Below the pieces are notes generated by a model. That model was not told the DNA's origin, made no database searches, and worked only from the letters and a program-made list of their open reading frames with translations. From an uncultured Actinomycetota bacterium (lineage in GTDB: Bacteria > Actinomycetota > Actinomycetes > JAHEKZ01): a stretch of 64,000 nt of DNA. The stretch lies in contig CAWHIJ010000003.1 in the NCBI GenBank assembly GCA_963829525.1, positions 288,001 to 352,000 on the forward strand. The letters are read 5' to 3'. Positions 39,432 to 59,765 of this stretch are shown here, piece after piece (the stretch's first letter is position 1; the number at the start of each line of letters is the position of its first letter). A program made the translations under genes and the position numbers.

Positions 39432-40232
39432 GTGGACCTCCGACCTCGGCTCATCGCCACGGACCTCGACGGCACCATCGTTAACCACGACGGGTCGGTG
39501 TCGGCGCGGGTCGTGGATGTCCTGGCTGCGGCAATGGACGCCGGTATCCGCGTCGTCTTCGTCACCGGGCGGCCACCCCGATGGATGCACGAGGTGGCCG
39601 AAACGACTGGCCACAGCGGCGTGGGGATCTGCGGAAACGGTGCGTTTGTGTACGACATGAAGACCGAGCGCGTACTCGAGCTGTTCGGCATGTCTCGTGA
39701 GGTGGCGGTCGAAGCGGTCGAACGGGTCCAGGAGGTGCTACCCAGCTCGGCCTTCGCGGTTGAGTCGCTGTCGGGGTTCAGCTATGAGCCCGCCTACAAG
39801 CCGCGCTGGGACGTCCACGAGCCAACGACCACGGGTCCGATCCATGGACTGCTGACAGGTGAGGTGGCCAAGCTGCTGGTACGGGACGAGGTCATACCCG
39901 GTGACGCGATGCTCGAGGTCGCCGCCCCCGTCCTTGTTGGTGTGGTTGAGGTGACCCACTCGAATGTCAACGACTCCCTGCTGGAGTTGAGCGCGCTCGG
40001 AGTCACGAAGGGAACGACGCTGGCCAAGCTCGCGGCCGACTGGGGAATCGCGCAGGACGAGGTCGTCGCCTTTGGTGACATGCCGAACGACGTCGACATG
40101 CTGCGTTGGGCCGGGCGTGGATATGCGGTGGGCAATGCACATCCGTCCGTGCTTTCGGTGGCCGACGAACGCGCGCCATCGATCGATGAGGACGGCGTAG
40201 CCCAGGTGCTGGAACGGCTGCTTGCCCTCTAG
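39432..40232 (+). CDS. Cof-type HAD-IIB hydrolase
   Basis: DLDGT, VTGR, NGA, KG, FGDMPND motifs. Confidence 0.92.
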   Translation: MDLRPRLIATDLDGTIVNHDGSVSARVVDVLAAAMDAGIRVVFVTGRPPRWMHEVAETTGHSGVGICGNGAFVYDMKTERVLELFGMSREVAVEAVERVQEVLPSSAFAVESLSGFSYEPAYKPRWDVHEPTTTGPIHGLLTGEVAKLLVRDEVIPGDAMLEVAAPVLVGVVEVTHSNVNDSLLELSALGVTKGTTLAKLAADWGIAQDEVVAFGDMPNDVDMLRWAGRGYAVGNAHPSVLSVADERAPSIDEDGVAQVLERLLAL

Positions 40233-40714
40233 TGCGCCTTGACGCGCAGCGTCTCGACGTTGAAGTGGCGGCGGATCTTGGCCGCGAGGTCGGTCGCCGT
40301 GAGTTCGTTGAGGTGGCGGTGACGGACCATCACGACGACCTCGTCTGGGTTGTGGTGGGCCACCAGGTCACCGATCGAGTCCAGTGGGTGGTTCGGGGTG
40401 ACGACGCCTTCAGCGGTGGCGCCAGCATCGGTGAGTGCCTGGACGGAGGCTGCGAGCACCTTCTCCGCATCATGTTGAGCGATCGCACCGGGGTTGTACT
40501 CAGCGTCCGCCAGTGACCTCGTACCAACCCCACGACCAGCGGCGACGCCGAGTTCCCAGTCGTTGACGACTGCGCCCATCGAAGACGACGTCGGTTCTTC
40601 GGGAACCGCGACGTAGAAACTCACCTTTGCGGCATCTCCGCCAGCGATGTCGACGAGCCCGCCAGCATCCTCGGCGGTGAGCGGGTGTGTGGTGACGACT
40701 ACGACGGTACTCAT
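40229..40714 (-). CDS. Conserved hypothetical protein, USP-like fold suspected
   Basis: GGAGG RBS; AEKVLAASVQAL..AGATAEG...PL......DEVVV pattern resembles USP-like alpha/beta proteins. Confidence 0.65.
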   Translation of the reverse strand: MSTVVVVTTHPLTAEDAGGLVDIAGGDAAKVSFYVAVPEEPTSSSMGAVVNDWELGVAAGRGVGTRSLADAEYNPGAIAQHDAEKVLAASVQALTDAGATAEGVVTPNHPLDSIGDLVAHHNPDEVVVMVRHRHLNELTATDLAAKIRRHFNVETLRVKAH

Positions 40715-40769
40715 GAATCCTCCACGACTCAGGTGACTGCGGAAGTCAAGCACACTAGGGAAGGCCCCG

Positions 40770-40846
40770 GTGCACTCGGCGCCGAAAGACGTCAATCTGG
40801 CTGAACACTCGGCAGGCCTTGGCGTCAACCCGGTGTGCACTCGGCG
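40770..40846 (-). repeat. Dispersed 32-33 bp period repeat, copy B
   Basis: CACTCGGC three times on + with CGTCAA between; reverse complement aligns with 32335..32410. Confidence 0.7.
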
Positions 40847-40875: not shown

Positions 40876-41280
40876 TCAGGCGTCGGGCTGCTTGCGGATG
40901 TGCTCCTTGGGGATGACCGTGGTGCCCGTGGCACGGCAGACCACGATCGGCTCCTTGAGCACATCGGCGGCGCTGGGGGTCAGGTCGTAGCGGGACGCGA
41001 TGATCTTTCGAGCTTCGAACTCGACCGTACGGCTGGTGTTGCCGATCTTCGTGACGCGTCCGGTGGCCTCGATGAAGTCGCCAGCGTAGACAGGCGCCGT
41101 GAACTCGATGTTCGAGTAGCCGACGAACAGCCCCTCGTCGCCGTCGGTGATCACGGCGATCTCGGTGATGACGTCGCCGAAGAGCTTGAGCATGCGAGCA
41201 CCCTCGACGAGGTTGCCCCCGTAGTGCGCCTCCTCCTGGCCGATGCGGACGCGGAGGGTTGAGGTGATCTCGCTGGTCAC
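40876..41280 (-). CDS. Hotdog-fold aminoacyl-CoA ammonia-lyase (Kal 3-aminobutyryl-CoA / Acl beta-alanyl-CoA family)
   Basis: [57 protein letters not shown] match the Kal/Acl family as I recall it. Confidence 0.88.
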
Positions 41281-43439
41281 TGTGGTGCTCCTTCGATGGT
41301 GGCGTGTGCCGGGGTGTGCGAGTCGAGGGTGATCGACTCGGGGTTTGGGGCGGTAGCCCGCTCGATGACTGCGTCGACGGCGACCGCGCGGTCGCGGCCG
41401 ACGATGATCGGGTTCACGTCGATGGCGACGACTTCGGGGTGCGCGATGCCGAGGTCAGTCACCGCAACCAGGGCGCGCGCGACGGCGTCAACGTCGAGGG
41501 CTCCCCCGCGTGCCTCGGCCATCATGCGGCCCACGTGGCTGGCGGCGAGCAGCCGATGCGCGCCGTCGAGGTCGAGAGCACCGACGTGAACGCTGACCGA
41601 GTCGAGCATCTCGGCCCAGACACCGCCGAGACCGACGATCGTTGTCGGACCGAACTGCGGGTCGCGCTTGTAGCCGACCACTACGTCCAGCGAGCCGGTG
41701 ATCTGCTCGACGACGAGCAGCTCGACGACGAGCCCAGCGGTTGACGCCGCGCACAACACTTCACGGGCGGCAAGCTGGACGGCGTCGGCACCGACGACGT
41801 TGGTCACGACCAGTCCGAGGTCGCTCTTGTGCAGCAGACCGTCGGCCACCGCCTTGATGACGACGGGACCACCAAAGCCGGCAGCGGCTTTAACGGCCTC
41901 GGCAGCCGTCGTGACGCGCTCCTGGCGTGGCGTCTGGATGCCGCACTCTCCGAGGATCTGCAGGGCGACGTCCTCGGTGAGCTCGACCGTCTCGGTGACA
42001 GCCGCGATGCGTGCGGGGTTCCGCTCGACTGCTGAGGCAGGTGGCGCCCGGTGTGCGAGTGCGCCGAGTGCGCGGAGCGCTCCACGCGCGCCGCGAAGCA
42101 ACGCGATGTCGTTGTCGTGGCAGAACGACGTGAGGCGCGGGTCCGGGTCTTGGCTCGTGGGGCTGAGCAGGACCGGCACGACGTTGCGGTCTCGAGTTGC
42201 GTCCGCGAGGTACCGGGCGAGGTCGAGGCCTAGCTGCCGCTCGTACTCGCCGGCAGTCACCTGCTGGTCCTGCGAGACGATGACGTTGTCGCCGCCTTCT
42301 CGGGCAACGGCGTCGATCGCGAGCGGGTAGACCGCGGTGTAGTCGTCGACACCCCACGGGTCGAGTGGGTTCGCGGTGTGGAACGCCGGCCACCGCTCGG
42401 CAAGCGGAGCAGTCGCAGCGTCGGTGAGGTCGGGCAGCTCGAGGCCCGCGTCCTCGGCGAGGTCGCTGAGCAGGTTCGCTTCTCCACCGGAGTTGGTGAC
42501 GATGTGCGTGCGCGAGCCGAGCACCCTGCGTCCGGTGCCCAGGATCTCACCCATAGTGATGAGCTCGTCGAGGTCGTCGGCGAGCACGACGCCGGCCTGC
42601 TGCAACGCGGCCGCGGTGACGCGCGCGCTCGGTGCGAGCTTTCCGGAGTGCGCGAGGATTCCATCGCGCGCCTTGGCCGACCGGCCAACGAAACAGGCAG
42701 CGACGGTCTTGCCGGCCTCGGCCACTTCGCGTGCTGCCGCAAGAACGTCGGGTGCGTCGACGAAGCCCTCGATGAAGACGAGCACCGCGTTGGTCTCGGG
42801 GTCGCTGGCAAAGAAACGCAGATAGTCGCCCGCGGTGGTGACGGCCTCGGTGCCGCTGCTGACAAGCGTGGAGAACGGGATGCGTCCACCGCAGTTGACG
42901 AAGGCCTCGATCACGGCGCCGCTCTGCGCGATGGCAGCGACGCCCCCGCGTCGCACCTGGCCGGGGACGGTGCCGACGTAGGGCATCGCGCCGGTGACGA
43001 GGTCGACGACCCCCATGCAGTTCGGTCCTACCACCGAGATGCCCGTGACGTTGGAGAGCGTGGCCAGCGATGCGGCGAGGTCGGTCGCGGCGCCGCCGGA
43101 GTCGGTGAAGCCGCCGCCCGGAACGATCACGGCGCCGGCCCCGATCGCGGCTGCCTCCTCGGCGATCGCTTGGACGCGCGCGGTTCCGACGAGAGCGACG
43201 ACCGCGTCCGGTGCGGTGTCGAGGTCAGAGAGAGTGGCAACCGTTGGGACACCGGCAACCTCGGAGTACTTGCCGTTCACCGGGACGATGAGCCCACCGA
43301 AGCGGTGATCGGCGCAGTTGCGCTGCACGATCTGTCCGGCGAACGAGCGTGGGCTTGCGCCGACGACGGCGATCGAGCGCGGGCGCAGGGTGGCTGCGAG
43401 TGCCGCCTGCGTCGGCTGGTGGGTGCGGCTGGCGTCCAT
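41277..43439 (-). CDS. ADP-forming acyl-CoA ligase (ACD superfamily, fused alpha-beta)
   Basis: [19 protein letters not shown], catalytic-His loop AHSGKLA, NSGG, NPLD; ATP-grasp HKSD, RDPQFGP, DVNP. Stop overlaps the lyase start. Confidence 0.9.
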
Positions 43440-43476
43440 GTACCAAGCGTCGAGAGTCGGCGAGCTAGCGGCTAGC

Positions 43477-43519
43477 GGCAGAGTGTTCTGACTGAGACCC
43501 GATGACGCGACACTCTGCC
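43477..43519. promoter_or_regulatory. 10-bp inverted repeat in the divergent promoter region
   Basis: GGCAGAGTGT-N23-ACACTCTGCC. Confidence 0.45.
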
Positions 43520-43580
43520 TCTTGGTGCGAGAGTGCCTCTGCAGAAGACTGGTCGTGTTCCCGAGTCTTGGAGTCTCTTG

Positions 43581-44579
43581 ATGTCGAGCATTCCCGCCAC
43601 ATTCGCTGCCTTTGTCGCGGAGAAGGACGGCGACGCCGTCGTCCGCGAGGTACGCCAGATCTCCGTCAACGACCTCGGCGAGGGTGACTCCGTCATTCGC
43701 GTCACGTGGTCGTGCGTCAACTACAAGGACGGCCTCGCCACGTTGGCGAACGGCAAGGTGGCCCGCATCAACCCAATCATCCCCGGCGTCGACATGGCCG
43801 GAGAGATCGTCGAGCCAGGGGACTCCGGGCTCGCGGTCGGCACCGAGGTGATCGCGCACGGGTACGACCTCGGCGTCGCGCACCATGGCGGCTACACCGA
43901 GTGCGCCCGCGTGCCGTCGCAGTGGCTCGTGCCGCTGCCGGACGGGTTGACCGCCAAGCAGGCAATGGCCATTGGCACCGCGGGCTTCACGGCTGCGCTG
44001 TCGGTGCACGCACTCGAGCGCCATGGTCTCAAGCCCGGCACCGGGCCCGTACTGGTGACCGGCGCGACTGGCGGCGTTGGTTCGGTGGCTGTCGGCATCC
44101 TCGCCGACCGCGGGTACGAGGTGGCAGCGTCCACCGGCAAGCCGGACGCCGAAGGGTTCCTGAAGGGGCTCGGCGCCAGCGAGATCGTCAGCCGCGACAA
44201 GACGTCCGGCCCAGGCAAGCCGCTCGAGCGTGAGCGTTGGGCCGGAGCCGTTGACTGCGTCGGTGCTTCAACGCTTCCGTACATCTTGCGCACGTTGAAG
44301 TACGGCGGTGCCGTTGCGGCGTCCGGCAACACCAGTGGCATCGGGCTGGAGACGACGGTCTTCCCGTTCATCCTGCGCGGCATCGCGCTGCTCGGGATCG
44401 ACTCTGTTGCGATGCCGATCGAGGAGCGTCGCGCCGTGTGGCAGCGGATCGCCACTGACCTGCGTCCGCGTAGCCTTGACGACATCGGCTCGCGCGAGGT
44501 GTCGCTCGCCGAGCTGCCGAGCGCGCTCGACGACGTCCTGGCTGGTGCCAACACCGGGCGCACGCTCGTCCGCCTCTGA
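43581..44579 (+). CDS. acuI: YhdH/YhfP-family MDR, acryloyl-CoA reductase-like
   Basis: VNYKDGLA, IPGVDMAG, AMAIGTAGFTAAL, VTGATGGVGS, TVFPFILRGIALLGIDSV. Confidence 0.85.
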   Translation: MSSIPATFAAFVAEKDGDAVVREVRQISVNDLGEGDSVIRVTWSCVNYKDGLATLANGKVARINPIIPGVDMAGEIVEPGDSGLAVGTEVIAHGYDLGVAHHGGYTECARVPSQWLVPLPDGLTAKQAMAIGTAGFTAALSVHALERHGLKPGTGPVLVTGATGGVGSVAVGILADRGYEVAASTGKPDAEGFLKGLGASEIVSRDKTSGPGKPLERERWAGAVDCVGASTLPYILRTLKYGGAVAASGNTSGIGLETTVFPFILRGIALLGIDSVAMPIEERRAVWQRIATDLRPRSLDDIGSREVSLAELPSALDDVLAGANTGRTLVRL

Positions 44580-46527: not shown

Positions 46528-47052
46528 ATGACTGAACGGTCGCTCAGTGAAATGCCGGGCGGCGCGTCTTACGACGCCGCCGACCCCGATGCCGCGCGCG
46601 TACGGGCGATCGCGGTGGCCCGCAGCGGCGAGCTCGGGCCGCTGATGGAGATCCTGCACGACATCCAGCACACCGTCGGTTACCTGCCTGCGAGCACGGT
46701 GCCTGTGCTCGCGGATGTCCTTAACCTCAGCCGCGCCGAGGTCCACGGCGTCGTGTCGTTCTACTCCGACTTCCGTACCAGCCCTCCCGCTGCCACCACT
46801 GTTGCCATCTGCCGTGGCGAGGCGTGCCAGGCGGTGGGCGCCGAAGCCCTTGTGGACCATGCGAAGACCAAGCTTGGGGTCGGTGTCGGCGAGCAGAGTG
46901 CCGATGGCTCGGTCGGTCTCGAGCAGATCTTCTGCTTCGGCAACTGTGCGCTGGGACCGACCGCCACCGTCGCTGGTCGGCTCCGCGGCAGGCTCACCCC
47001 AGCCTCGCTCGACGCGCTCATCGATGAGGCAACGCCAGGAGCACACCAGTGA
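46528..47052 (+). CDS. fdsG: NAD-dependent formate dehydrogenase gamma subunit (NuoE-like)
   Basis: LNLSRAEVHGVVSFY, CRGEAC, CFGNC. Confidence 0.88.
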   Translation: MTERSLSEMPGGASYDAADPDAARVRAIAVARSGELGPLMEILHDIQHTVGYLPASTVPVLADVLNLSRAEVHGVVSFYSDFRTSPPAATTVAICRGEACQAVGAEALVDHAKTKLGVGVGEQSADGSVGLEQIFCFGNCALGPTATVAGRLRGRLTPASLDALIDEATPGAHQ

Positions 47053-48602
47053 CCGTCACCGTCTACGTCCCTCGCGACTCCTCGGCGCGTGCTGTCGGCG
47101 CCGACGAGGTCGCCGTTGCCCTGACGGCTGAGGCGGCCAGACGCGGTGACGACATCTGCATCGTGCGAAACGGGTCACGCGGCATGCTCTGGCTCGAACC
47201 GTTCGTCGAGGTTGACGTCGACGGCACTCGCATCGGTTACGGTCCGGTCCAAGCGGCCGACGTCGCTGACTTGCTGGACGCGGGGCTGCTCACAGGTGGT
47301 GACCATGCGCTGAAGCACGGGGTGGTTGACGAGCTCTCCTGGCTTTCCCGCCAGGACCGCCTCATGTATGCGCGGATGGGCGTCATCGACCCGATCGACC
47401 TCAGCGACTACCAGGCGCACGGCGGGCTTGTTGGCCTTCGCAAGGCCGTTGCGATGGCGCCGCAAGACGTCGTTGACGTGGTCACGGCGTCCGGGCTTCG
47501 CGGCCGTGGTGGCGCCGGCTTCCCGGCTGGCCGCAAGTGGCAGACCGTACTCGGCGCACCGGGCGACACCAAGTACATCTGCTGTAACGCCGACGAGGGC
47601 GACAGCGGCACGTACGCCGACCGCATGCTCATGGAGGGTGACCCGTTCACCCTTCTCGAAGGCATGACGATCGCCGGACTCGCCGTTGGCGCAACACAGG
47701 GCTACATCTACCTGCGTTCGGAGTACCCGGACGCTCGCGACATCCTCAACGCCGCGATCGAAGCCGCACGAGAGTTTGGCTGGCTCGGCGCCGACGTCCT
47801 CGGCAGTGGGCGAGCCTTCGACATCAAGGTCCGTATGGGCGCCGGTGCCTACATCTGCGGCGAAGAGACGTCGATGCTCGACAGCCTCGAGGGCAAGCGC
47901 GGCATGGTGCGCGCCAAGCCGCCGCTGCCGGCACTCGAAGGCCTCTTCGGCAAGCCAACAGTCGTCAACAACGTACTCACCCTGGGCAGCGTCCCGTTCG
48001 TGCTGGCCGAGGGTGCGGACGCGTATGCGTCCCGCGGGCTTGACCGCTCGCTCGGTACGCAGGTCTTCCAGCTCGCCGGCAACATCAAGCAGGGCGGCGT
48101 CGTCGAGCTCGGGTTCGGCGTGACGCTGCGCGAGCTGGTTGAAGACTTCGGTGGCGGCACCGCGTCCGGGCGCCCTATCCGCGCGATCCAGGTGGGTGGC
48201 CCGCTCGGCTCCTACCTGACTGCCGACCAGCTCGACCTGCCGCTCGAGTACGAAACCTTCGCTGCGGCCGGCGCCATGGTGGGCCACGGCGGAATCGTGG
48301 TGCACGATGACACGGTGGACATGGCGCAGATGGCGCGGTTCGCCATGGAGTTCTGCTCCGAAGAGTCGTGCGGCAAGTGCACGCCCTGTCGCGTGGGTTC
48401 GACGCGAGGTGTCGAGGTCATCGACAAGATAACCGCTGGCGACGACCGCACCGGCAACCTCACGCTGCTGCTCGACCTCTGCGACGTCATGACCGACGGC
48501 TCGCTCTGCGCGATGGGCGGACTCACCCCAATGCCCGTTCGCAGCGCACTCACCAAGTTCCCCGAAGACTTTGGCCTGACGGCTCAGGAGGTCACCCCAT
48601 GA
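47049..48602 (+). CDS. fdsB: Formate dehydrogenase beta subunit (NuoF-like)
   Basis: RNGSRGMLWLEP, GLRGRGGAGFP, NADEGD, YICGEET, SCGKCTPCR. Confidence 0.92.
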   Translation: MTVTVYVPRDSSARAVGADEVAVALTAEAARRGDDICIVRNGSRGMLWLEPFVEVDVDGTRIGYGPVQAADVADLLDAGLLTGGDHALKHGVVDELSWLSRQDRLMYARMGVIDPIDLSDYQAHGGLVGLRKAVAMAPQDVVDVVTASGLRGRGGAGFPAGRKWQTVLGAPGDTKYICCNADEGDSGTYADRMLMEGDPFTLLEGMTIAGLAVGATQGYIYLRSEYPDARDILNAAIEAAREFGWLGADVLGSGRAFDIKVRMGAGAYICGEETSMLDSLEGKRGMVRAKPPLPALEGLFGKPTVVNNVLTLGSVPFVLAEGADAYASRGLDRSLGTQVFQLAGNIKQGGVVELGFGVTLRELVEDFGGGTASGRPIRAIQVGGPLGSYLTADQLDLPLEYETFAAAGAMVGHGGIVVHDDTVDMAQMARFAMEFCSEESCGKCTPCRVGSTRGVEVIDKITAGDDRTGNLTLLLDLCDVMTDGSLCAMGGLTPMPVRSALTKFPEDFGLTAQEVTP

Positions 48603-51404
48603 CACTGCTTCACGAGCCTGTCGGACGCGTGCTGTCTGACATGGGCACGCCCGAAGTTCCGGGTGAGTCAACCATCGAGGTTGAGATCGACGGCGTCGCT
48701 GTCACCGTGCCCGAGGGCACCTCGATCATGCGGGCCGCCGCTGAGGCTGGCATCGACGTCCCCAAGCTCTGCGCCACTGACACGTTGAAGTCGTTCGGCT
48801 CGTGCCGGGTCTGCCTGGTCGAGATCGAAGGACGCCCGGGCACGCCTGCGTCCTGCACAACGCCCGTTGCTCCTGGCATGAAGGTCGCAACGAGCACACC
48901 GAAGGTCGACAAGCTGCGCCAAAGCGTCGTTGAGCTCTACCTCTCCGACCACCCTGCTGACACTTGCGTCGAGGGTGCCTGCGAGCTGCACGCGATGGCA
49001 GAGACCGTCGGGCTCACCGACGTCCGGTATGGCCAGGAGGGCCACAACCACCTCGACATCGAGGTGGATGCCTCCAACCCCTACTTCACCTTCGACCCGA
49101 AGGCGTGCATCGTCTGCTCCCGTTGTGTGCGTGCGTGCGACGAGGTGCAGGGCACCTTGGCGCTCACGGTTGAGGGACGTGGCTTCGAGTCGCTGATCTC
49201 GGCGTCCGGCACGTCATTCATGGAGTCGGAGTGCGTCTCCTGCGGTGCCTGCGTTCAGGCCTGCCCGACGACTGCACTTCAGGAGAAGAGCATCATCGAG
49301 CTCGGTATGCCGACGCGAACGGTGAAGACCACCTGCGCCTATTGCGGAGTCGGTTGCTCGTTTGACGCTGAGATGCGTGGCGACGAGCTGGTGCGCATGA
49401 CGCCATCGAAAGAGGGCGGCGCTAACGAGGGTCACTCCTGCGTCAAGGGTCGCTTCGCGTGGGGCTACGCAACTCACCGCGAGCGCGTCACCGTCCCCAT
49501 GGTGCGCGAGTCGATCACCGACGATTGGCGTGAGGTGTCGTGGGACGAGGCGATCAGCTTCACCGCTCAGCGCTTCACGGCACTGCAGCAGAAGTACGGT
49601 GCGGACTCTATCGGTGGGATCACATCGTCGCGCTGCACGAACGAAGAGGTCTTCGTCGTGCAAAAGATGGTGCGGGCTGCGTTCGGCAACAACAACGTCG
49701 ATACGTGTGCGCGGGTCTGTCACTCCCCCACTGGGTATGGCCTGAAGCAGACGTTTGGAACCTCGGCGGGAACTCAAGACTTCAAGTCGGTGGAACAGGC
49801 CGACATGATTCTGCTGATCGGCGCCAACCCCACCGACGCGCACCCGGTCTTCGGCTCTCGCATGAAGAAGAGGTTGCGCGAAGGGGCCCAACTCGTCGTG
49901 GTTGACCCGCGCCGCATCGATCTCGTGCGGACGCCGCACGTCGAAGCTGAACACCACCTGCAGCTGCGTCCAGGAACCAACGTTGCGGTCGTCAATGCAT
50001 TTGCGCACGTCGTCGTCACCGAGGGGCTCGTCGACCGCGAGTTTGTGGCCGCCCGCTGCGAGGACGACTCGTTCGCGTCGTGGGAGGCGTTCATCGCCCA
50101 GCCGGAGAACAGTCCGGAGGCGACCGAGTCAGCCACCGGCGTTCCCGCGTCAGAGATCCGCGAGGCCGCCCGGCTCTATGCGAAAGCGCCAAACGCAGCG
50201 ATCTACTACGGACTGGGTGTCACCGAGCACAGCCAAGGTTCGACGATGGTCATGGGCATGGCCAACCTTGCGATGGCCACGGGCAACATCGGTCGCGACG
50301 GCGTTGGCGTCAACCCACTGCGCGGGCAGAACAACGTGCAAGGTTCGTGCGACATGGGTTCGTTCCCCCACGAGTTCAGCGGCTACCGGCACGTCTCCGA
50401 CGACACCGTTCGCGTGCTCTTCGAGGACGTGTGGGGCCGGGAGATGCGCGCCGAACCAGGGCTTCGCATCCCGAACATGTTCGATGCCGCGGTCGCTGGA
50501 ACGTTCCGGGGCCTCTTCGTCCAGGGCGAGGACGTTGCGCAGTCCGATCCGAACATCACGCATGTCACTGCTGCCCTGACGGCACTCGACACGTTGGTCG
50601 TTCAGGACCTCTTCCTCAACGAGACGGCGAAGTTCGCCCACGTATTCTTGCCGGGAACGTCGTTCCTCGAGAAGGACGGCACCTTCACCAACGCCGAGCG
50701 TCGGATCAACCGGGTACGCCCAGTGATGGAGCCGAAGACCGGCAAGCAGGAGTGGCAGGTGGCCTGCGACATCTCCGCCGCAATGGGCTACTCGATGCAC
50801 TACGACGATGCCTCGCAGATCATGGACGAGATCGCCCGCGTCACACCAACGTTCGCCGGCGTCTCGTTCGCGCACCTAGATGCCGTTGGCAGCCTGCAGT
50901 GGCCGTGCAACGACGCCGCGCCAGAGGGTACGCCGATCATGCACGTCGACGGCTTCGTCCGGGGCAAAGGACACTTCGTGCAGACGCCGTACGTCCCCAC
51001 CGACGAGAAGACGAACCGCAAGTTCCCACTCATCCTGACGACCGGCCGCATCCTGTCGCAGTACAACGTCGGTGCGCAGACGCGTCGAACTTCCAACGTC
51101 GAGTGGCACCCCGAGGACCTGCTCGAGATGCACGAGGCCGACGCCGCCGAGCGCGGGATCAGCGAAGGTGACTGGGTTGCCCTCAACAGTCGGGTTGGTG
51201 AGACGCACATGCGCGCGCACATCACCGATCGTGTGCCACAGGGTGTCGTCTACACAACGTTCCACCACCCCGAGAGCGGGGCGAACGTCGTCACCACCGA
51301 GCACTCCGACTGGGCGACGAACTGCCCCGAGTACAAGGTGACCGCGGTGCAGATCCGTCCGGCGAACGCTGCTGATCCCAGCGCGGGCCGGTGCCGGAGT
51401 ATGA
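48599..51404 (+). CDS. fdsA: Formate dehydrogenase alpha subunit (Mo-bisPGD, Cys ligand)
   Basis: 2Fe-2S and 4Fe-4S Cys motifs, CAYCGVGC, CARVCH, PLRGQNNVQG, CPEYKVTAV. Reads through into fdsD as given; removing one G at 51385-51387 restores a TGA at 51402-51404. Confidence 0.93.
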
Positions 51405-51613
51405 GCAACACCGACCTCGTGCGGATGGTCAACCAGATCGCCATCAATCAGGGTCATCTGCCCGAAGATGAGGCGGCGGCGCTGGTGGCACAGCACCTGA
51501 AGATGTTCTGGGCGCCGGCCATGCAGCGTGACCTGTTCGCTGCCGTCGATGCAGGTGAAGCAGACCTCAACGAGGTTGCGCTGCGCGCGGTGCGGCAGCT
51601 TCAGCCAGCCTGA
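51401..51613 (+). CDS. fdsD: Formate dehydrogenase delta subunit
   Basis: LVRMVNQIA, VAQHLKMFWAPAMQ signature. Confidence 0.85.
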   Translation: MSNTDLVRMVNQIAINQGHLPEDEAAALVAQHLKMFWAPAMQRDLFAAVDAGEADLNEVALRAVRQLQPA

Positions 51614-51646
51614 TCCGTTCGACGCCCGCGTAGCAGTTGAACGAGC

Positions 51647-52390
51647 TCATTGCGCGAGAATCCGACAAGCGTCAAGCCCGGACTCTCGAGCGAGGTCGAC
51701 GGCGAGCGTCGACGGCGCAGACACCGCAGCCAGCATCGGAATGCCAGCCATCACTGCCTTCTGCGTCAGCTCGAAGGACGCGCGAGCACTCACCTGAAGC
51801 AGCCATTCCGAGGCTGGAAGCGCCTCGTGCTGCAGCGCCCAGCCGACGACCTTGTCGACGGCGTTGTGGCGTCCGACATCTTCGCGGATGCAGACCGGGT
51901 CGCCGTTGAAGGTGAAGAGGCCAGCTGCGTGCAAGCCACCGGTGCGGTCGAACGCCGACTGCGCAGCGCGGAGTCGGTCGGGCAGCGCTGCGATCACCGT
52001 TGGCGAGATGGTGGCGGCGTTGCCGAGCACGGCGCCCCGGCGCGTGACGACCTCGGTGATGCTGTCGGCGCCACAGATGCCGCAGGCGCTGCTGGTCATG
52101 GTCAGCCGCGGTGCCGGTGGGATGAGTCTGTTGGCCAGGCGCACCTCAACGGTGTTCTCGTCACAAGCGATCGCGCCGATGACGTCTTGCGGGGTGTGCA
52201 CCGTTCCTTCGGAGACGAGCCACCCGAGCGCAAGCTCGATGTCGTGCCCCGGCGTCCGCATCGTCGTCGCGGTGTCGACCCCGTTGACCCGGATCGTGAG
52301 GGGCTCCTCGACCGCGAGCTGGTCGACGACCTCGGTGGCTACACCGTCGCGAAGCCGGGTCATCCGGCGTCGGTCTACGAGGCGTCCCAT
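51647..52390 (-). CDS. fdhD: Formate dehydrogenase accessory sulfurtransferase (C-terminus frameshifted)
   Basis: EEPL, TMRTPG, SACGICG, TGGLHAA, EDVGRHNAVDK, VSAPS. The expected tail GLTLVGF and SFNCYAG lies in two other frames. Confidence 0.9.
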   Translation of the reverse strand: MGRLVDRRRMTRLRDGVATEVVDQLAVEEPLTIRVNGVDTATTMRTPGHDIELALGWLVSEGTVHTPQDVIGAIACDENTVEVRLANRLIPPAPRLTMTSSACGICGADSITEVVTRRGAVLGNAATISPTVIAALPDRLRAAQSAFDRTGGLHAAGLFTFNGDPVCIREDVGRHNAVDKVVGWALQHEALPASEWLLQVSARASFELTQKAVMAGIPMLAAVSAPSTLAVDLARESGLDACRILAQ

Positions 52391-52436
52391 GGAACAACGG
52401 TGCCACAGGATGGGACAGATGGCGTCGCGCGTTCCA

Positions 52437-53162
52437 TCAGATGACCCGTTTGAAGGCGTTCGCGCAGGGCGGTCCCTCGGCATGGTCGTAGCGGACGCCG
52501 CCCGAGGTGACGACGACGGTGGCGCTCGAGACGGTGCCGTAGCGCTCGGCGTGGATGCAGGCGGGTGATCCGGCGTCTGAGGTCTCGTGCGACCGCAAGA
52601 TGTCGCCGAGGAGCAGGACGAGGTCGTCGGGGCTTGCTGCTGACGCGAGCGCGGCCTGCGCCTGGCCGCGGATGCGGGTGGCCTTGGGGTCGGCCGGGTC
52701 GTCAAGGTCCTGCTCGGTGAGCACATGGATGCCGGGTGTGAGCTGAGCGGTGACGCGTCCGCGTCCGTCGTCCAGCGACGTCCAGAACGCGGCCTGGCGC
52801 GAGGCGTAGAGCACGTTGACGGGGTTGAAGTCGCCCGGTTGCAGCGACTCCATCCAGGCCAACGCGTCGGTGTCAGAGCCAGCGAGGACCTCCAGCGGCA
52901 GCGTGCCGCGAGTTCGACGGGAGGGGTCTGGGGCTGCGAAGACTCCGCCGGGATGCCGGTTCGTCACCGCACCGATCCGCCCCTCGGGGTCGACGGCCAA
53001 CCAGGTGCCGCCCGCCAGCCGGTCACGCCCGCCCCATCTGGGTGGCTCCGACGTGAGGAGCAACGGCGGGTCGCTTGGGCGTCCCAAGAGCTCATCGCGG
53101 TTGGCGGCGACGACCAAGGGAACTTCGGGGTAGCACTGCGACGCGACGATGACGGTGCACAC
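52437..53162 (-). CDS. NRDE/TANGO2 family protein
   Basis: N-terminal MC, ANRDE, RDRLAGGTWL, YGTVS. Confidence 0.9.
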   Translation of the reverse strand: MCTVIVASQCYPEVPLVVAANRDELLGRPSDPPLLLTSEPPRWGGRDRLAGGTWLAVDPEGRIGAVTNRHPGGVFAAPDPSRRTRGTLPLEVLAGSDTDALAWMESLQPGDFNPVNVLYASRQAAFWTSLDDGRGRVTAQLTPGIHVLTEQDLDDPADPKATRIRGQAQAALASAASPDDLVLLLGDILRSHETSDAGSPACIHAERYGTVSSATVVVTSGGVRYDHAEGPPCANAFKRVI

Positions 53163-53487: not shown

Positions 53488-53915
53488 ACTTCCCGGACGC
53501 AAATGTCTTGGTCTACGCGGTCAACACCAAGGCAGCCCAGCACCTGGTGGCTCGTGACTGGCTCGACAGGGCGCTCAACGGTGATCGAACGGTCGGGTTC
53601 GCCTGGTCAGTCCTGCTCGCCTTCGTCCGGGTGTCGACCAACCCCGCAATCTTCCCCACCCCGCTGTCGGTCGGCGATTCGATGGACGTTGTTGACGGCT
53701 GGACGAGCCAACCCTCGGCGGTCATCGTGAATCCTGGTAAGGGTCACGGGGCCGTTCTCGGTGACCTCCTGCGAACAGCGCAGCAGGGTGGGAACTTGGT
53801 TTCGGACGCCCATCTCGCGGCGTTGGCTTTGGAGAACAAAGGAACGGTCGTGTCGTTCGACCGTGACTTCGGGAGGTTCGCCGGGGTCAAGTGGTTGATT
53901 CCCGGCAGCGTCTAG
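53484..53915 (+). CDS. vapC: VapC PIN-domain toxin
   Basis: DANVLVYA, NLVSDAHLAALALE, SFDRDF. Confidence 0.92.
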   Translation: MNFPDANVLVYAVNTKAAQHLVARDWLDRALNGDRTVGFAWSVLLAFVRVSTNPAIFPTPLSVGDSMDVVDGWTSQPSAVIVNPGKGHGAVLGDLLRTAQQGGNLVSDAHLAALALENKGTVVSFDRDFGRFAGVKWLIPGSV

Positions 53916-55552
53916 GGGCGAAGGGCTTCGTAGGCCATGACGGCGGCGTGGAGTGACGTGCAGGCCTCGGCGGAGTCGAGGTCCACCGAGAGCACCTTCT
54001 CGATCGTGGTCAGCCGTTGGTAGAAGGCTTGCCGCGACAGGTGTGCGGCGTCGGCCGCTGCCGACTTGTTGCGTCCATGCGTGAGATAGATCTGCAGCGC
54101 GCCGACGAGATCGGTGCCGTTCTTGGCGTCGTGGTCGAGAAGCGGTCCGAGGGTTCGCTCGACGAAGGCCTGCAGTCGCGGGTCTGCCCCGAGCACGTAC
54201 AACAGCCCGCGCAACTGAACGTCCGGCAGTTCGTAGTACGGCTTCACCTCCGGTGACCCCTGCGCCGCCTCCGCTGCGTGGGCCGCCTCCGCGAACGAGC
54301 GCCGCACGGCGTCGAGGTCACGCACCCACGAGCCGACGCCGATCACCGGCCGGCTGACGTTGGCCGAGTCGGCCTTCGCCAGGACGTGCTGCGCCACCCG
54401 GGTCAGCAGCACGGATGCGTCGGCGCCGTCAGGCAGTGGCAACAGGACTCCGACGCGTCCAGGTCGCAGCGAGCCAACCAGCGCCTTGACGTCTGCCGAT
54501 CGCAGTGCGGACGCCACGAGCTCGGCCTCGAGGTCGCGCGGTCTGGCGTGCGGCTGGTGGGCTCGGTCGGCGCTCAGCTCGACGACGACCGCGACCAGCT
54601 CACGTCGAGCCGTGGGGACTCCGAGCGCCGCCGTACGCGCATGAACGTCGTCTGACGACTCAAAGCGGCGGTCGATGATGTCGGCCAGCGTGGTGCGATG
54701 CGCCTGCAGCTCCATCGGGTCCTGCTGCTGCTCAAGGAGCCGGTTGAGAGTGAGTGCCGTCGCAGCCCGTTCCAGCACCATCAGCTGCAAGGGACCGGGT
54801 TCGCCATCCGGCAAGAGCACGAGACGCCCCCACACCTCACCGCGCGCCTCGACCATCGCCACGACCCACCCCTCCGGCCCGCAGACGTCACTGTGCGCTG
54901 ACGTCTGCGCGGCGCGCGAGCGCGTGCTCCAGTCGCGCAGCACCTCGTCCGTCGACCGCGCCGCTGGTGCATGAGCCACGACCTGGTGCACGAGGTTCTC
55001 GAACACGACGGCGCAACCGGAGAGCCGAGCGGCCTCGTGCACGATCGAAGAGGCCGACGCGCCCTCGACGCAGAGCCGGGTGAAGACGCGGTGCGCCGAC
55101 TCAGAGGCGTGCAGGGCGCTGATCTGTTCCTCGACGATCAACGAATGCACCGCCTGGGTGACCTTGACGAAGCGCAGCTCGCGCTGCAGCGAGATCAGCG
55201 GCAGCCGGTGTCCTTCACAGGCCCTGACGAGGGCGCGCGGCAGCTCGGAGTAACGTCGCCCCAGCTCGACCACGAGGGCCACAGCGCCAGCTGTCGCGAG
55301 TGCGTCGGCGTAGGTGCGAAGCGCCTCGTCCGTCTCCGGAAGAGCGATTCCGGTAGTCAGGATCACCTCGCCGCCCGACAGCAGCCCAGCGATGTCCGGC
55401 AGCTCGCTGACGTGGACCCAGCGCACCTTGGCGTCGAGCCCTCGGGCACCAGCGTCGACGCGCGGCAGGCCAACGGCGACATCCGGCAGCCTGAGGATGT
55501 CGCGAACACGCGGAAGCGCCGCCTGGGCGGTGAGGGCTGCGCGATCGGACAT
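53912..55552 (-). CDS. PucR family transcriptional regulator
   Basis: N-terminal RWVHVSE..LSGGEVILTTG and C-terminal HTH (NKSAAADAAHLSRQAFYQRL). Confidence 0.92.
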   Translation of the reverse strand: MSDRAALTAQAALPRVRDILRLPDVAVGLPRVDAGARGLDAKVRWVHVSELPDIAGLLSGGEVILTTGIALPETDEALRTYADALATAGAVALVVELGRRYSELPRALVRACEGHRLPLISLQRELRFVKVTQAVHSLIVEEQISALHASESAHRVFTRLCVEGASASSIVHEAARLSGCAVVFENLVHQVVAHAPAARSTDEVLRDWSTRSRAAQTSAHSDVCGPEGWVVAMVEARGEVWGRLVLLPDGEPGPLQLMVLERAATALTLNRLLEQQQDPMELQAHRTTLADIIDRRFESSDDVHARTAALGVPTARRELVAVVVELSADRAHQPHARPRDLEAELVASALRSADVKALVGSLRPGRVGVLLPLPDGADASVLLTRVAQHVLAKADSANVSRPVIGVGSWVRDLDAVRRSFAEAAHAAEAAQGSPEVKPYYELPDVQLRGLLYVLGADPRLQAFVERTLGPLLDHDAKNGTDLVGALQIYLTHGRNKSAAADAAHLSRQAFYQRLTTIEKVLSVDLDSAEACTSLHAAVMAYEALRP

Positions 55553-55891
55553 GGCACCCCTCGTGGCTCGTCTCCCGGCTGGTTCGGCCGCCGTCTCCGG
55601 TGTCCGCGAGAGTAGCGACTGAGCGAAGTGCTTCGTTTCCGAAGTCGATTTTCGGGCGCGCACGCCCAGGGCCATCTGTTCCGGCCAACACGGTTCGATT
55701 ACAAACGCTAGACGCGTCCGGATTGAGCGGTTAGGTTCGGCCCACGCAGCAGGCACTGCTGGGTCGAGTGTGTGTGGAGTCCGGCGATTGTGCGGTCTGA
55801 GGGGGCGCAAGCCGGAGATCTTCCCGTCACACGTGGGTGAGGTTCACGAGAGGCCGGTGGCCGCACGGTGCGGCGCCAGGAGGGATTGGGC

Positions 55892-57751: not shown

Positions 57752-57755
57752 CTGA

Positions 57756-59764: not shown

Positions 59765-59765
59765 A

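What the first reader, a model, noticed from the sequence alone, without database searches (positions are those of the whole stretch)
40876..44579. Candidate new pathway: ADP-forming CoA ligase + aminoacyl-CoA ammonia-lyase + acryloyl-CoA reductase
Seen: an ACD-family ligase with intact catalytic His is translationally coupled to a Kal/Acl hotdog lyase, and both are divergent from an AcuI/YhdH reductase across 141 bp. No lysine-fermentation genes (kamA, kamDE, kdd, kce) are in the window. Known: Acl converts beta-alanyl-CoA to acryloyl-CoA + NH3 in Clostridium propionicum, where a CoA-transferase activates the substrate; Kal does the same for 3-aminobutyryl-CoA; AcuI reduces toxic acryloyl-CoA to propionyl-CoA; the DMSP lyase DddX is an ACD-family ligase that yields acryloyl-CoA. 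Inference: a three-step ATP-driven route beta-alanine -> beta-alanyl-CoA -> acryloyl-CoA -> propionyl-CoA that I do not know to be described in actinomycetes. Alternatives: 3-aminobutyrate or 3-aminoisobutyrate, beta-alanine betaine or DMSP (a split DddX-like system), or the reverse direction for acrylate detoxification. The lyase segment [15 protein letters not shown] looks Acl-like while its ends look Kal-like (from memory).
Basis: partly seen in the sequence, partly recalled or inferred. Interest (0 to 1): 0.85.

Follow-up and report, generated by a model that had tools for sequence, protein, structure and literature searches.

The report
Mobile beta-amino acid breakdown gene cassette
Three neighbouring genes, plus a regulator 9 kb away, form a conserved and horizontally spread cassette in actinomycetes that most likely breaks down beta-alanine or a close analogue by an undescribed ATP- and CoA-dependent route to propionyl-CoA.

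Summary
A Kal/Acl-family hotdog lyase (40876-41280, -) starts in a 4-base GTGA overlap with the stop of an ADP-forming CoA ligase (41277-43439, -). Both lie 141 bp from a divergent YhdH/AcuI-family reductase (43581-44579, +).

The trio is not explained by lysine fermentation. The genome has a separate lysine cluster with its own, only 46-49% identical, Kal. Four of five other trio-bearing genomes searched showed no KamD.

The lyase clade was found next to the ligase ortholog at 9 of 9 loci outside the genus, and next to the reductase at 7 of 9. In 121 Geodermatophilaceae genomes the three genes occur together in four, and almost nowhere else. A PucR-type regulator ortholog also travels with them (window 53912-55810).

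The ligase's closest solved relative is the DMSP lyase DddX. It keeps DddX's His, Trp, Glu and Tyr substrate-site residues, which its own paralogs lack.

Best reading, at about 0.5: beta-alanine to beta-alanyl-CoA to acryloyl-CoA to propionyl-CoA. The substrate is inferred, not shown. It is a new variant of known CoA-dependent beta-amino acid lyase pathways. I found no description of it in the paper library that I searched.

The parts
40876..41280 (-). Kal1: Kal/Acl-family hotdog aminoacyl-CoA ammonia-lyase, 134 aa, GTG start
   Evidence: NF052388 179 bits, above the 160 cut-off. Matches Acl2 structure 4mtu at E 2.9e-28. Belongs to a clade of 15 rows (SH-aLRT 93) in which every row of known context with upstream DNA is ligase-linked.
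41277..43439 (-). ADP-forming (NDP-forming, ACD-superfamily) CoA ligase, fused alpha-beta, 720 aa, related to DddX
   Evidence: Three ACD domains. Best solved relative is DddX 7cm9 at 280 bits, against 193 and 186 for the 3HP- and 4HB-CoA ligases. Residues matching DddX Tyr181, Asp208 (as Glu), His292, Trp391 and Glu432 are invariant in 12 of 12 orthologs. The ATG at 43439 was read.
41277..41280 (-). GTGA overlap of the ligase stop codon and the lyase start codon (translational coupling), with GAAGGAG upstream
   Evidence: Sequence read directly.
43440..43580 (.). 141-bp divergent intergenic region, presumed to hold both promoters and an operator
   Evidence: Sequence read directly. The sigma-70 consensus scan found no promoter-like site.
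43581..44579 (+). YhdH/AcuI-family NADPH-dependent enoyl-CoA (acryloyl-CoA) reductase, 332 aa
   Evidence: TIGR02823 420.7 bits, above the 297 cut-off; NF051456 358.6, below 440. Solved AcuI 5gxf at E 2e-88 and YhdH 1o89 at E 6e-82. Co-occurs with the ligase-lyase pair.
53912..55810 (-). PucR-family regulator, probable regulator of the cassette. The ORF is 632 aa as listed; orthologs of about 530 aa suggest a later start.
   Evidence: PucR, GGDEF_2 and HTH_30 domains. It is the only homolog in this genome of the regulators that flank the trio elsewhere, 45% identical over full length to the one in the Sinomonas island. Orthologs lie near the trio in L060, L062-L066 and L156, and in none of the Kal2 or classical Kal loci.

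Best explanation
This is a self-contained, horizontally spread catabolic cassette with four genes: a PucR-type regulator, a YhdH/AcuI-type reductase and, divergent from the reductase, a DddX-related ADP-forming CoA ligase translationally coupled to a Kal/Acl-family lyase.

Proposed mechanism:
1. The ligase converts a small acid carrying a cationic group on C3, most likely beta-alanine, into its CoA thioester, using ATP and giving ADP + Pi by way of a phosphohistidine.
2. The hotdog lyase eliminates ammonia from beta-alanyl-CoA, giving acryloyl-CoA.
3. The reductase uses NADPH to reduce acryloyl-CoA to propionyl-CoA. This pulls the two reversible steps forward and removes a toxic electrophile.

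The net result is free NH3 plus propionyl-CoA.

Shown here: the gene identities, their order and coupling, co-inheritance of the genes, independence from lysine fermentation, and a DddX-like substrate site in the ligase.

Inferred: the substrate, the direction of flux, the cofactor and the role of the regulator.
For: Family assignments come, and the coupling and spacing.

Conservation of the trio:
- At 9 of 9 loci outside the genus that carry a lyase at least 74% identical (L059-L066, L156), the ligase ortholog lies directly upstream. In L059 only its C-terminal end is left at the contig edge. In L060 it is split over three frames.
- The reductase is adjacent at 7 of those 9 loci.
- Among 133 locus-derived Kal copies, 83 sit beside KamD/KamE/Kdd, 17 beside the ligase and 33 beside neither. 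None sits beside both. Four own-genus loci were fetched twice, so they count twice in these figures.

Family sample of 121 Geodermatophilaceae genomes:
- The Kal1-type lyase occurs in 5 genomes.
- The ligase ortholog (53-56% identity) occurs in 4, each time next to the lyase. The next best ligase matches are only 33-34% identical.
- The reductase ortholog occurs in 5: the same 4, adjacent each time, plus one genome where it stands alone.

Independence from lysine genes. Four of 5 trio genomes have no KamD match and a single Kal.

The ligase resembles DddX:
- DddX is its top solved relative at 280 bits, against 193 and 186 for the next two. A paralog from the same genome ranks DddX third instead (215 against 256 and 251).
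- Equivalents of DddX Tyr181, Asp208, His292, Trp391 and Glu432 are invariant in 12 of 12 orthologs. In the 4 own-genome paralogs the Tyr and both acidic residues are absent in all 4, and the Trp is kept in only 2. The residue roles come from passages of PMC8163506.
- DddX's substrate is 3-dimethylsulfoniopropionate and its product is acryloyl-CoA.

The case for a C3 substrate. Characterised members of the reductase family reduce acryloyl-CoA; this is the family description and in passages of PMC5663086. An aerobe has no need for a reductase to dispose of crotonyl-CoA or methacrylyl-CoA; that point is my inference from standard beta-oxidation and valine catabolism.

Context elsewhere:
- Aminobutyraldehyde-dehydrogenase-subfamily genes (676 and 701 bits, cut-off 615) sit between the regulator and the trio in Blastococcus and Modestobacter.
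- In Sinomonas the regulator and the trio form a low-GC island (0.61-0.64, against 0.68-0.71 in the flanks). The island lies between a methylmalonate-semialdehyde dehydrogenase gene and PrpD plus a citrate-synthase-family gene.
- A phage-integrase-family gene lies beside the lyase in L156.
- Nineteen exact contig lengths are shared between the top-120 lyase list and the top-120 ligase list, among them Rhodococcus koreensis, Rhodococcus sp. B10 and Mycolicibacterium wolinskyi. This is only a proxy for the two genes lying on the same contig.
Against: - No enzyme activity, expression or phenotype was measured.
- The lyase passes the curated model for 3-aminobutyryl-CoA lyase. It is more similar to Kam-linked Kals (60-69%) than to the one solved beta-alanyl-CoA lyase (about 51%).
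- The reductase falls below the AcuI equivalog cut-off (358.6, below 440). Its closest solved relatives are uncharacterised Bacillus-type proteins.
- No ACD-family enzyme is known to me to activate an amino acid (recalled).
- DddX Phe435 is Leu in 11 of 12 orthologs.
- My mapping of DddX residue numbers was counted by hand from one pairwise alignment. The DddX residue roles rest partly on docking.
- The pair looks broken in two genomes of the window's own genus (G007, G010), though this could be assembly error.
- One genome has the Kal1-type domain fused to a DAO oxidoreductase, with no ligase or reductase nearby.
- The window has no transporter for beta-alanine next to the trio.
- In some searches only part of the first-look candidates were scored, so some orthologs may have been missed.
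Confidence: 0.5

Rival explanations
1. Same three-step logic, but the substrate is 3-aminobutyrate, or 3-aminobutyryl-CoA made by a Kce/BKACE enzyme. The ligase forms 3-aminobutyryl-CoA, the lyase acts as a true Kal and gives crotonyl-CoA, and the reductase gives butyryl-CoA.
For: The lyase scores above the curated Kal equivalog cut-off. It is 60-69% identical to Kals that sit in kdd-kamA-kamDE clusters, but only about 51% identical to Acl2. The window's genome also has a lysine cluster and two BKACE genes.
Against: - Four of 5 other trio genomes have no KamD match and only this one Kal.
- The lysine cluster brings its own Kal2.
- Reducing crotonyl-CoA is pointless for an aerobe with beta-oxidation (inference), yet the reductase is co-inherited with the pair.
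- The ligase's nearest relative and its conserved site point to a propionate skeleton.
Confidence: 0.17
2. A split DddX-like system for onium propionates: DMSP, beta-alanine betaine or N-methylated beta-alanines. The ligase forms the CoA ester. Elimination of DMS or an amine, by the ligase's own Glu or by the hotdog lyase, gives acryloyl-CoA, which the reductase then detoxifies.
For: DddX is the closest solved relative, aligned end to end, and His292, Trp391, Glu432 and Tyr181 are conserved. A DddX-like enzyme only about 23% identical to DddX, and lacking Trp391 and Glu432, still cleaves DMSP (PMC13543886, passages). Actinobacteria that release DMS from DMSP lack known ddd genes (PMC6309047 and PMC8163506, passages).
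Against: - DddX needs no separate lyase.
- The partner is a member of an ammonia-lyase family.
- The named carriers are Sinomonas, Blastococcus, Modestobacter, Geodermatophilus, Rhodococcus, Nonomuraea and Mycolicibacterium, not the marine Ddd+ genera listed.
- No BCCT-type or dddB/dddC-like genes were among the neighbours scanned.
- DddX Phe435 is Leu here.
Confidence: 0.1
3. The ligase runs in reverse as the ATP-yielding last step. An aminoacyl-CoA made elsewhere is deaminated and reduced, and the ACD then converts propionyl- or butyryl-CoA plus ADP and Pi into the free acid plus ATP.
For: ACDs run in the ATP-forming direction in fermenting archaea and protists (recalled). The window's genome has five ACD paralogs and a lysine cluster.
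Against: - The ligase's conserved acidic and aromatic site is shared with an enzyme that binds a cationic substrate, and it is missing from the paralogs.
- The ligase gene precedes the lyase gene and is translationally coupled to it, as expected for consecutive steps.
- Most named carriers are aerobic actinomycetes (recalled) that lack a source of aminoacyl-CoA.
Confidence: 0.08
4. The genes are neighbours by descent only and have unrelated functions.
For: Within the window's own genus the whole region is simply syntenic, flanking TrpB-like, HAD and ABC genes included.
Against: The same genes are adjacent in distant lineages with different flanks, in two different orientations, and inside a low-GC island. 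Presence and absence of the genes agree across the 121 genomes.
Confidence: 0.03

Closest known systems
Beta-alanine fermentation of Clostridium propionicum (beta-alanine CoA-transferase, Acl1/Acl2, acryloyl-CoA reduction)
   Same: Chemistry of steps 2 and 3: beta-alanyl-CoA goes to acryloyl-CoA + NH3 through a hotdog lyase homologous to the one here (4mtu, E 2.9e-28), and then to propionyl-CoA.
   Different: There the substrate is activated by a CoA-transferase (passage in PMC4619459), not by an ATP-dependent ACD ligase. That organism is a strict anaerobe, and its reductase is an unrelated flavoprotein complex (recalled). The lyase here is only about 51% identical to Acl2.
[quoted passage not shown]
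   Same: Same protein family, above the curated cut-off, and 60-69% identical to Kam-linked Kals.
   Different: It is never beside kdd, kamDE or kce. It forms its own ligase-linked clade. It occurs in genomes with no KamD match. The genome's true lysine-cluster Kal2 is only 46-49% identical to it.
DddX, ATP-dependent DMSP lyase of the ACD superfamily (PDB 7cm9)
   Same: It is the closest solved relative and aligns end to end. The phosphohistidine is shared, as are residues matching Tyr181, Asp208 (as Glu), Trp391 and Glu432. The predicted product of the module is the same, acryloyl-CoA.
   Different: Identity is roughly one third (my estimate from the alignment; not computed). Phe435 is Leu here. 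DddX carries out the elimination itself and sits with dddT/dddB/dddC-like genes. Here a separate ammonia-lyase is translationally coupled to the ligase.
AcuI/YhdH acryloyl-CoA reductases
   Same: Same MDR subfamily: TIGR02823 at 420.7 bits, and solved AcuI at E 2e-88. The predicted role, removing acryloyl-CoA, is the same.
   Different: It falls below the AcuI equivalog cut-off. It is coupled to a ligase-lyase pair rather than to DMSP, acrylate or 3-hydroxypropionate genes.
Beta-valine pathway of Pseudomonas sp. SBV1 (BvaA ligase with BvaB1/BvaB2 lyases), PMC4619459
   Same: [quoted passage not shown] BvaA has weak side activity on 3-aminobutyrate and beta-alanine (passages).
   Different: Both enzymes belong to unrelated families: an AMP-forming PaaK-like ligase and crotonase-fold lyases. 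That pathway has no dedicated reductase.

Membership tests
[quoted passage not shown] | Score above the curated equivalog cut-off | tested here: met
   179 bits against a cut-off of 160.
[quoted passage not shown] | Lies in a lysine-fermentation context (kce, kdd, kamDE) | tested here: not met
   No such genes lie in the window. The ligase-linked clade is never beside Kam or Kdd genes. Four of 5 trio genomes show no KamD match.
[quoted passage not shown] | Deaminates L-3-aminobutyryl-CoA to crotonyl-CoA | not testable with these tools
   Needs an enzyme assay.
Acl (beta-alanyl-CoA:ammonia lyase) | Homology to the solved Acl2 hotdog fold | tested here: met
   4mtu at E 2.9e-28, aligned over residues 13-129.
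Acl (beta-alanyl-CoA:ammonia lyase) | Closer to Acl than to Kal | tested here: not met
   About 51% identity to Acl2 (hand count), against 60-69% to Kam-linked Kals. No Acl sequence could be put into the tree.
NDP-forming acyl-CoA synthetase (ACD) superfamily | CoA-binding, CoA-ligase flavodoxin-like and ATP-grasp domains, plus the phosphohistidine | tested here: met
   PF13380, PF13607 and PF13549. The His aligns with DddX His292 and is kept in 12 of 12 orthologs and 4 of 4 paralogs.
DddX (ATP-dependent DMSP lyase) | Key residues His292, Trp391 and Glu432 | tested here: met
   All three are conserved in 12 of 12 orthologs, by my hand mapping. The residue list comes from passages of PMC8163506.
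DddX (ATP-dependent DMSP lyase) | Second cation-pi residue, Phe435 | tested here: not met
   Leu in 11 of 12 orthologs and Phe in 1.
DddX (ATP-dependent DMSP lyase) | Clustered with BCCT transporter and dddB/dddC-like genes | tested here: not met
   None was found among the neighbours scanned in the window or the related loci.
DddX (ATP-dependent DMSP lyase) | Releases DMS and acryloyl-CoA from DMSP | not testable with these tools
   Needs an assay.
YhdH/AcuI acryloyl-CoA reductase family | Score above the TIGR02823 subfamily cut-off | tested here: met
   420.7 bits against 297.25.
YhdH/AcuI acryloyl-CoA reductase family | Score above the AcuI equivalog (NF051456) cut-off | tested here: not met
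   358.6 bits against 440.
Complete lysine-fermentation pathway as the explanation for the lyase | The pathway needs this lyase copy | tested here: not met
   The cluster at about 1.75 Mb carries its own Kal2. The same Kal2 cluster, without the trio, is found in other genera and families of the class.
PucR-family regulators | PucR N-terminal domain with a C-terminal HTH_30 | tested here: met
   PF07905 at 122.9 bits, plus PF13556 and PF17853.

The most novel reading that the evidence does not exclude
The ligase is an actinomycete DddX-type enzyme that accepts 3-onium-propionates in general: beta-alanine, its N-methylated forms including beta-alanine betaine, and DMSP. On this reading the mobile cassette would be two things at once. 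It would be the first pathway built on an amino-acid-activating NDP-forming CoA ligase. It would also be the unidentified route by which actinobacteria without known ddd genes release DMS from DMSP.
Probability: 0.1. Interest if true: 0.85.

Novelty: new variant of a known kind. Interest (0 to 1): 0.62.

Why it matters
If it is confirmed, four things follow.

- It would add a third, non-homologous solution to CoA-dependent deamination of beta-amino acids, alongside the C. propionicum transferase/Acl route and the BvaA/BvaB route.
- To my knowledge it would give the ACD superfamily its first amino acid substrate.
- It would provide the closest non-DMSP relative of DddX, and so a handle on how that DMSP lyase evolved.
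- It would give the widespread YhdH/AcuI reductases a physiological source of acryloyl-CoA, something the literature says is lacking (PMC4029986, passage).

It would also correct a systematic database label. These lyases are currently named as lysine-fermentation enzymes. The enzymes are of practical interest for beta-alanine, acrylate and 3-hydroxypropionate engineering.

Tried and rejected
- Rejected: 'the lyase belongs to a lysine pathway elsewhere'. The genome's cluster has its own Kal2, and other carriers show no KamD match.
- Rejected: 'the segment is Acl-like'.
- Natural ligase-lyase fusions. Only one 281-aa protein joins an ATP-grasp_5 piece to the lyase (P0124), and it may be a miscalled overlap. 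The common fusions are Kal-Kce. Others are DAO-Kal and, in Streptomyces, a phosphopantetheinyl transferase fused to a Kal-like domain.
- Orphan Kals in another family of the phylum. They lie between branched-chain 2-oxoacid dehydrogenase genes and purine genes and say nothing about this module.
- The sigma-70 promoter scan of the locus found 0 sites.
- I could not place Acl1/Acl2 or DddX in trees, because no tool gave me their sequences as usable records. The lyase tree is therefore unrooted with respect to Acl, and closeness to DddX rests on PDB scores plus one paralog control. A second paralog control failed on a stop codon and was not repeated.
- The specificity of AcuI for acryloyl-CoA over crotonyl-CoA could not be checked in the papers I reached.
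- The lyase tree used the quick method on 131 columns, so only 10 of 80 branches are starred.
- Structure prediction, complex prediction, the sequencing-run tools and the search of protein representatives were not used.

Full report
**1. The observation**

ORF listing and translation, together with the profile scans, confirm three genes at the stated coordinates.

- The 134-aa protein at 40876-41280 (-) scores 179 bits on the curated model for 3-aminobutyryl-CoA ammonia lyase (cut-off 160). It matches the solved beta-alanyl-CoA:ammonia lyase 2 of Clostridium propionicum (4mtu) at E 2.9e-28.
- The upstream gene encodes a fused ADP-forming acyl-CoA synthetase with CoA_binding_2, Succ_CoA_lig and ATP-grasp_5 domains.
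- The divergent gene at 43581-44579 (+) scores 420.7 bits on the YhdH acrylyl-CoA reductase family model (cut-off 297), but falls below the AcuI equivalog cut-off (358.6 against 440).

Reading the DNA shows that the ligase stop and the lyase GTG start overlap as GTGA, behind a GAAGGAG. The ligase starts at the ATG at 43439, so the divergent spacer is exactly 141 bp.

I ran all ligase searches on 41277-43409, which lacks the first 10 residues. Residue numbers therefore need +10 to give full-length numbering.

**2. Is the lyase explained by lysine fermentation?**

The genome (2.96 Mb; the window is contig 3, 288001-352000) holds a second Kal at about 1.75 Mb. That copy lies in a cluster of a KamA-family gene, Kdd, Amidohydro_3, KamD, KamE, Kal2 and Lnt. 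BKACE (Kce-family) matches lie at 1.39 and 2.90 Mb.

The two Kals are only 46-49% identical.

I examined 37 loci around Kal genes in 40 relatives. Two unpublished genomes, G025 and G033, were not fetched.

- Twenty-seven loci were of the Kal2 lysine-cluster type. They were found in the window's genus and also in other genera and families of the class.
- Ten loci were of the window's type, and all ten came from the window's own genus.

So the lysine cluster brings its own lyase, and the window's copy is an extra.

**3. Is the trio conserved?**

A scan of species-representative genomes returned 80 loci. Four of them repeat own-genus loci.

The eight other loci whose lyase is 74-86% identical come from the following sources:

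- Sinomonas gamaensis;
- Geodermatophilus;
- two Blastococcus;
- Modestobacter;
- MAGs labelled Nocardioidaceae and Anaerolineaceae;
- one Actinomycetota MAG.

All eight have the ligase ortholog (48-55% identity) directly upstream. In L059 only its last 56 residues remain at the contig edge, and in L060 it lies in three frames. Six of the eight also have the reductase (61-65% identity).

A ninth locus, L156, has the window's divergent layout.

The other 68 loci, with lyases 60-69% identical, are mostly Bacteroidales and Clostridia clusters of Kal, Kdd, KamA, KamD and KamE.

Over all fetched loci, 83 Kal copies sit by Kam or Kdd genes, 17 by the ligase and 33 by neither. None sits by both.

In a quick maximum-likelihood tree the ligase-linked lyases form one group of 15 rows (SH-aLRT 93, not starred). 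That group is separate from the Kal2 group (22 rows, 100) and from the classical Kam-linked Kals.

**4. Presence and absence**

In an even sample of 401 genomes of the phylum, only the window's genome has this lyase type; the next best match is 61% identical.

In 121 Geodermatophilaceae genomes:

- The lyase type occurs in 5, whereas the Kal2 type occurs in about 70.
- The ligase ortholog occurs in 4, always next to the lyase.
- The reductase ortholog occurs in 5: those same 4, adjacent, plus one genome where it stands alone.
- The fifth lyase is fused to a DAO-family oxidoreductase domain, with no ligase or reductase within 10 kb.

These tallies include the unpublished genomes G451 and G463 in their denominators, and those include G046, G062, G092, G283 and G435. 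No specific claim rests on any of them.

The sample is centred on a carrier, kin are not independent, and only part of the first-look candidates were scored.

Four of 5 carriers searched have no KamD match and a single Kal.

**5. The ligase**

Against solved structures the best match is DddX, the ATP-dependent DMSP lyase (7cm9). It scores 280 bits, with residues 9-686 of the query aligned to 47-728 of DddX. The 3-hydroxypropionate- and 4-hydroxybutyrate-CoA ligases follow at 193 and 186 bits. A paralog from the same genome ranks those two first (251 and 256) and DddX third (215).

Passages of the DddX paper (PMC8163506) assign these residue roles:

- His292 is the phosphohistidine.
- Trp391 and Phe435 act as cation-pi partners of the sulfonium group.
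- Glu432 is the likely base.
- Tyr181 and Asp208 lie near the substrate.

Counting along the alignment by hand, these correspond to His264, Trp362, Leu403, Glu400, Tyr154 and Glu178 of the full-length window protein.

One search aligned the window protein with 11 database orthologs (39-68% identical) and with the four paralogs of the same genome.

- Tyr, Glu, His, Trp and Glu are invariant in all 12 orthologs.
- The paralogs keep the His (4 of 4). They keep the Trp in 2 of 4, and none of the Tyr or the two acidic residues.

The ligase clade therefore shares a substrate-site signature with an enzyme whose substrate is a propionate carrying a cationic group on C3.

A later paper shows that a DddX-like enzyme about 23% identical to DddX, and lacking Trp391 and Glu432, still cleaves DMSP (PMC13543886, passages). 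The signature is therefore not required for DMSP chemistry.

**6. The wider cassette**

A PucR-family regulator ortholog lies within about 6 kb of the trio in L060, L062, L063, L064, L065, L066 and L156. It is found in none of the Kal2 or classical Kal loci.

The window's genome has exactly one homolog of these regulators, at window 53912-55810 (-), 9.3 kb from the reductase. It is 45% identical over its full length to the Sinomonas copy.

In Sinomonas the regulator, reductase, ligase and lyase fill a low-GC island (0.61-0.64, against 0.68-0.71 in the flanks). The island lies between a CoA-acylating methylmalonate-semialdehyde dehydrogenase gene and PrpD plus a citrate-synthase-family gene.

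In L156 a phage-integrase-family gene lies beside the lyase.

In Blastococcus and Modestobacter an aminobutyraldehyde-dehydrogenase-subfamily gene sits between the regulator and the trio. Amidohydro_3 genes flank the trio in both Blastococcus loci.

Protein searches add named carriers in Rhodococcus, Nonomuraea, Mycolicibacterium, Pseudonocardia and Aeromicrobium. Nineteen exact contig lengths are shared by the top-120 lyase and ligase lists, which is a proxy for linkage.

**7. Mechanism**

The shown facts fit a route in which the ligase activates a small 3-ammonio acid, the coupled lyase eliminates ammonia, and the reductase removes the enoyl-CoA.

I favour beta-alanine, and so acryloyl-CoA, for four reasons:

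- The characterised relatives of the reductase act on acryloyl-CoA.
- Reducing crotonyl- or methacrylyl-CoA would be pointless for aerobes (inference).
- The ligase resembles an enzyme that works on a C3 skeleton.
- omega-Aminoaldehyde dehydrogenase genes and genes for propionyl-CoA oxidation lie nearby in some carriers.

Against this, the lyase looks more like Kal than like Acl by overall sequence, and nothing was assayed.

My confidences are:

| Reading | Confidence |
|---|---|
| Beta-alanine | 0.5 |
| 3-Aminobutyrate | 0.17 |
| Onium propionates, DMSP included | 0.1 |
| ATP-yielding reverse direction | 0.08 |
| No functional link | 0.03 |

**8. Literature**

No paper in the searchable library holds both '3-aminobutyryl-CoA' and 'ADP-forming'. 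Searches combining beta-alanyl-CoA with acryloyl-CoA reductase, ligase or ammonia-lyase terms gave no description of this cassette.

The nearest precedent in logic is the beta-valine pathway, an AMP-forming ligase plus crotonase-type lyases (PMC4619459, passages).

I saw Herrmann 2005 and Kreimeyer 2007 only as citations. Heine 2014 and Asao and Alber 2013 are recalled and were not read. Supplementary files were not opened.

**9. Verdict**

The finding is real and conserved, and the cassette appears to be horizontally mobile. As far as my searches reach it is undescribed. It is a new variant of CoA-dependent beta-amino acid deamination, built from a DddX-related ligase, a Kal-family lyase, an AcuI-family reductase and a PucR-type regulator. 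The substrate remains to be shown.

Noticed in passing
L004 (own genome, contig 3, 1744000-1763999): An actinobacterial lysine-type cluster runs KamA-family (+), then Kdd, Amidohydro_3, KamD, KamE, Kal2 and Lnt (-), with no Kce/BKACE gene in it. The same order recurs across genera and families of the class. The Amidohydro_3 gene sits where classical clusters carry other genes, and its role is unknown.
   Followed up: partly
L155:8167-10080 (+), and protein P0125: A Kal1-type lyase domain (74-75% identical) is fused to the C-terminus of a DAO-family FAD oxidoreductase. It lies next to a second DAO gene and an MmyB-like regulator, with no ligase or reductase nearby.
   Followed up: partly
Proteins P0163, P0192, P0206 and others: Streptomyces proteins named holo-ACP synthase (4'-phosphopantetheinyl transferase domains) carry a Kal-like domain 55-64% identical to the window's lyase.
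   Followed up: no
L137-L143, L145-L147, L151: In another family of the phylum, a Kal 55-60% identical stands alone between branched-chain 2-oxoacid dehydrogenase genes and purine-synthesis genes, with neither Kam genes nor the ligase.
   Followed up: partly
L053 (G007) and L054 (G010): In two genomes of the window's genus the pair looks damaged. The ligase is in four pieces with residues 54-162 missing and the lyase lacks its first 17 residues (G007), or the lyase is split by a frameshift (G010). The reductase is intact in both. Assembly error is not excluded.
   Followed up: partly
window 40229-40840 (-): An ORF lies 35 bp downstream of the lyase on the same strand. It has no Pfam or NCBIfam match, probably starts at an internal Met (about 161 aa), and is conserved only within the genus, at a lower identity (62-73%) than its neighbours.
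   Followed up: no
window 47049-52726: A soluble NAD-dependent formate dehydrogenase set: a NuoF-like subunit, a 1081-aa molybdopterin subunit with fused 2Fe-2S/4Fe-4S and FdsD domains, and FdhD. It lies between the trio and the PucR gene.
   Followed up: no
window 55868-61771: A lower-GC stretch (0.60, against about 0.65) encodes an SBP_bac_5 peptide-type ABC importer, divergent from the PucR regulator. It could be the uptake system of the cassette, but this was not tested.
   Followed up: no
own genome, contig 3: about 2.04, 2.40, 2.65 and 2.81 Mb: There are four further ACD-family paralogs in a 2.96-Mb genome, only 28-31% identical to the window's ligase. The one at 2.65 Mb has its ATP-grasp match split over two frames.
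   Followed up: no
L062:4001-11000: In Sinomonas gamaensis the regulator and the trio form a low-GC island inserted between a methylmalonate-semialdehyde dehydrogenase gene and prpD/citrate-synthase-like genes.
   Followed up: yes
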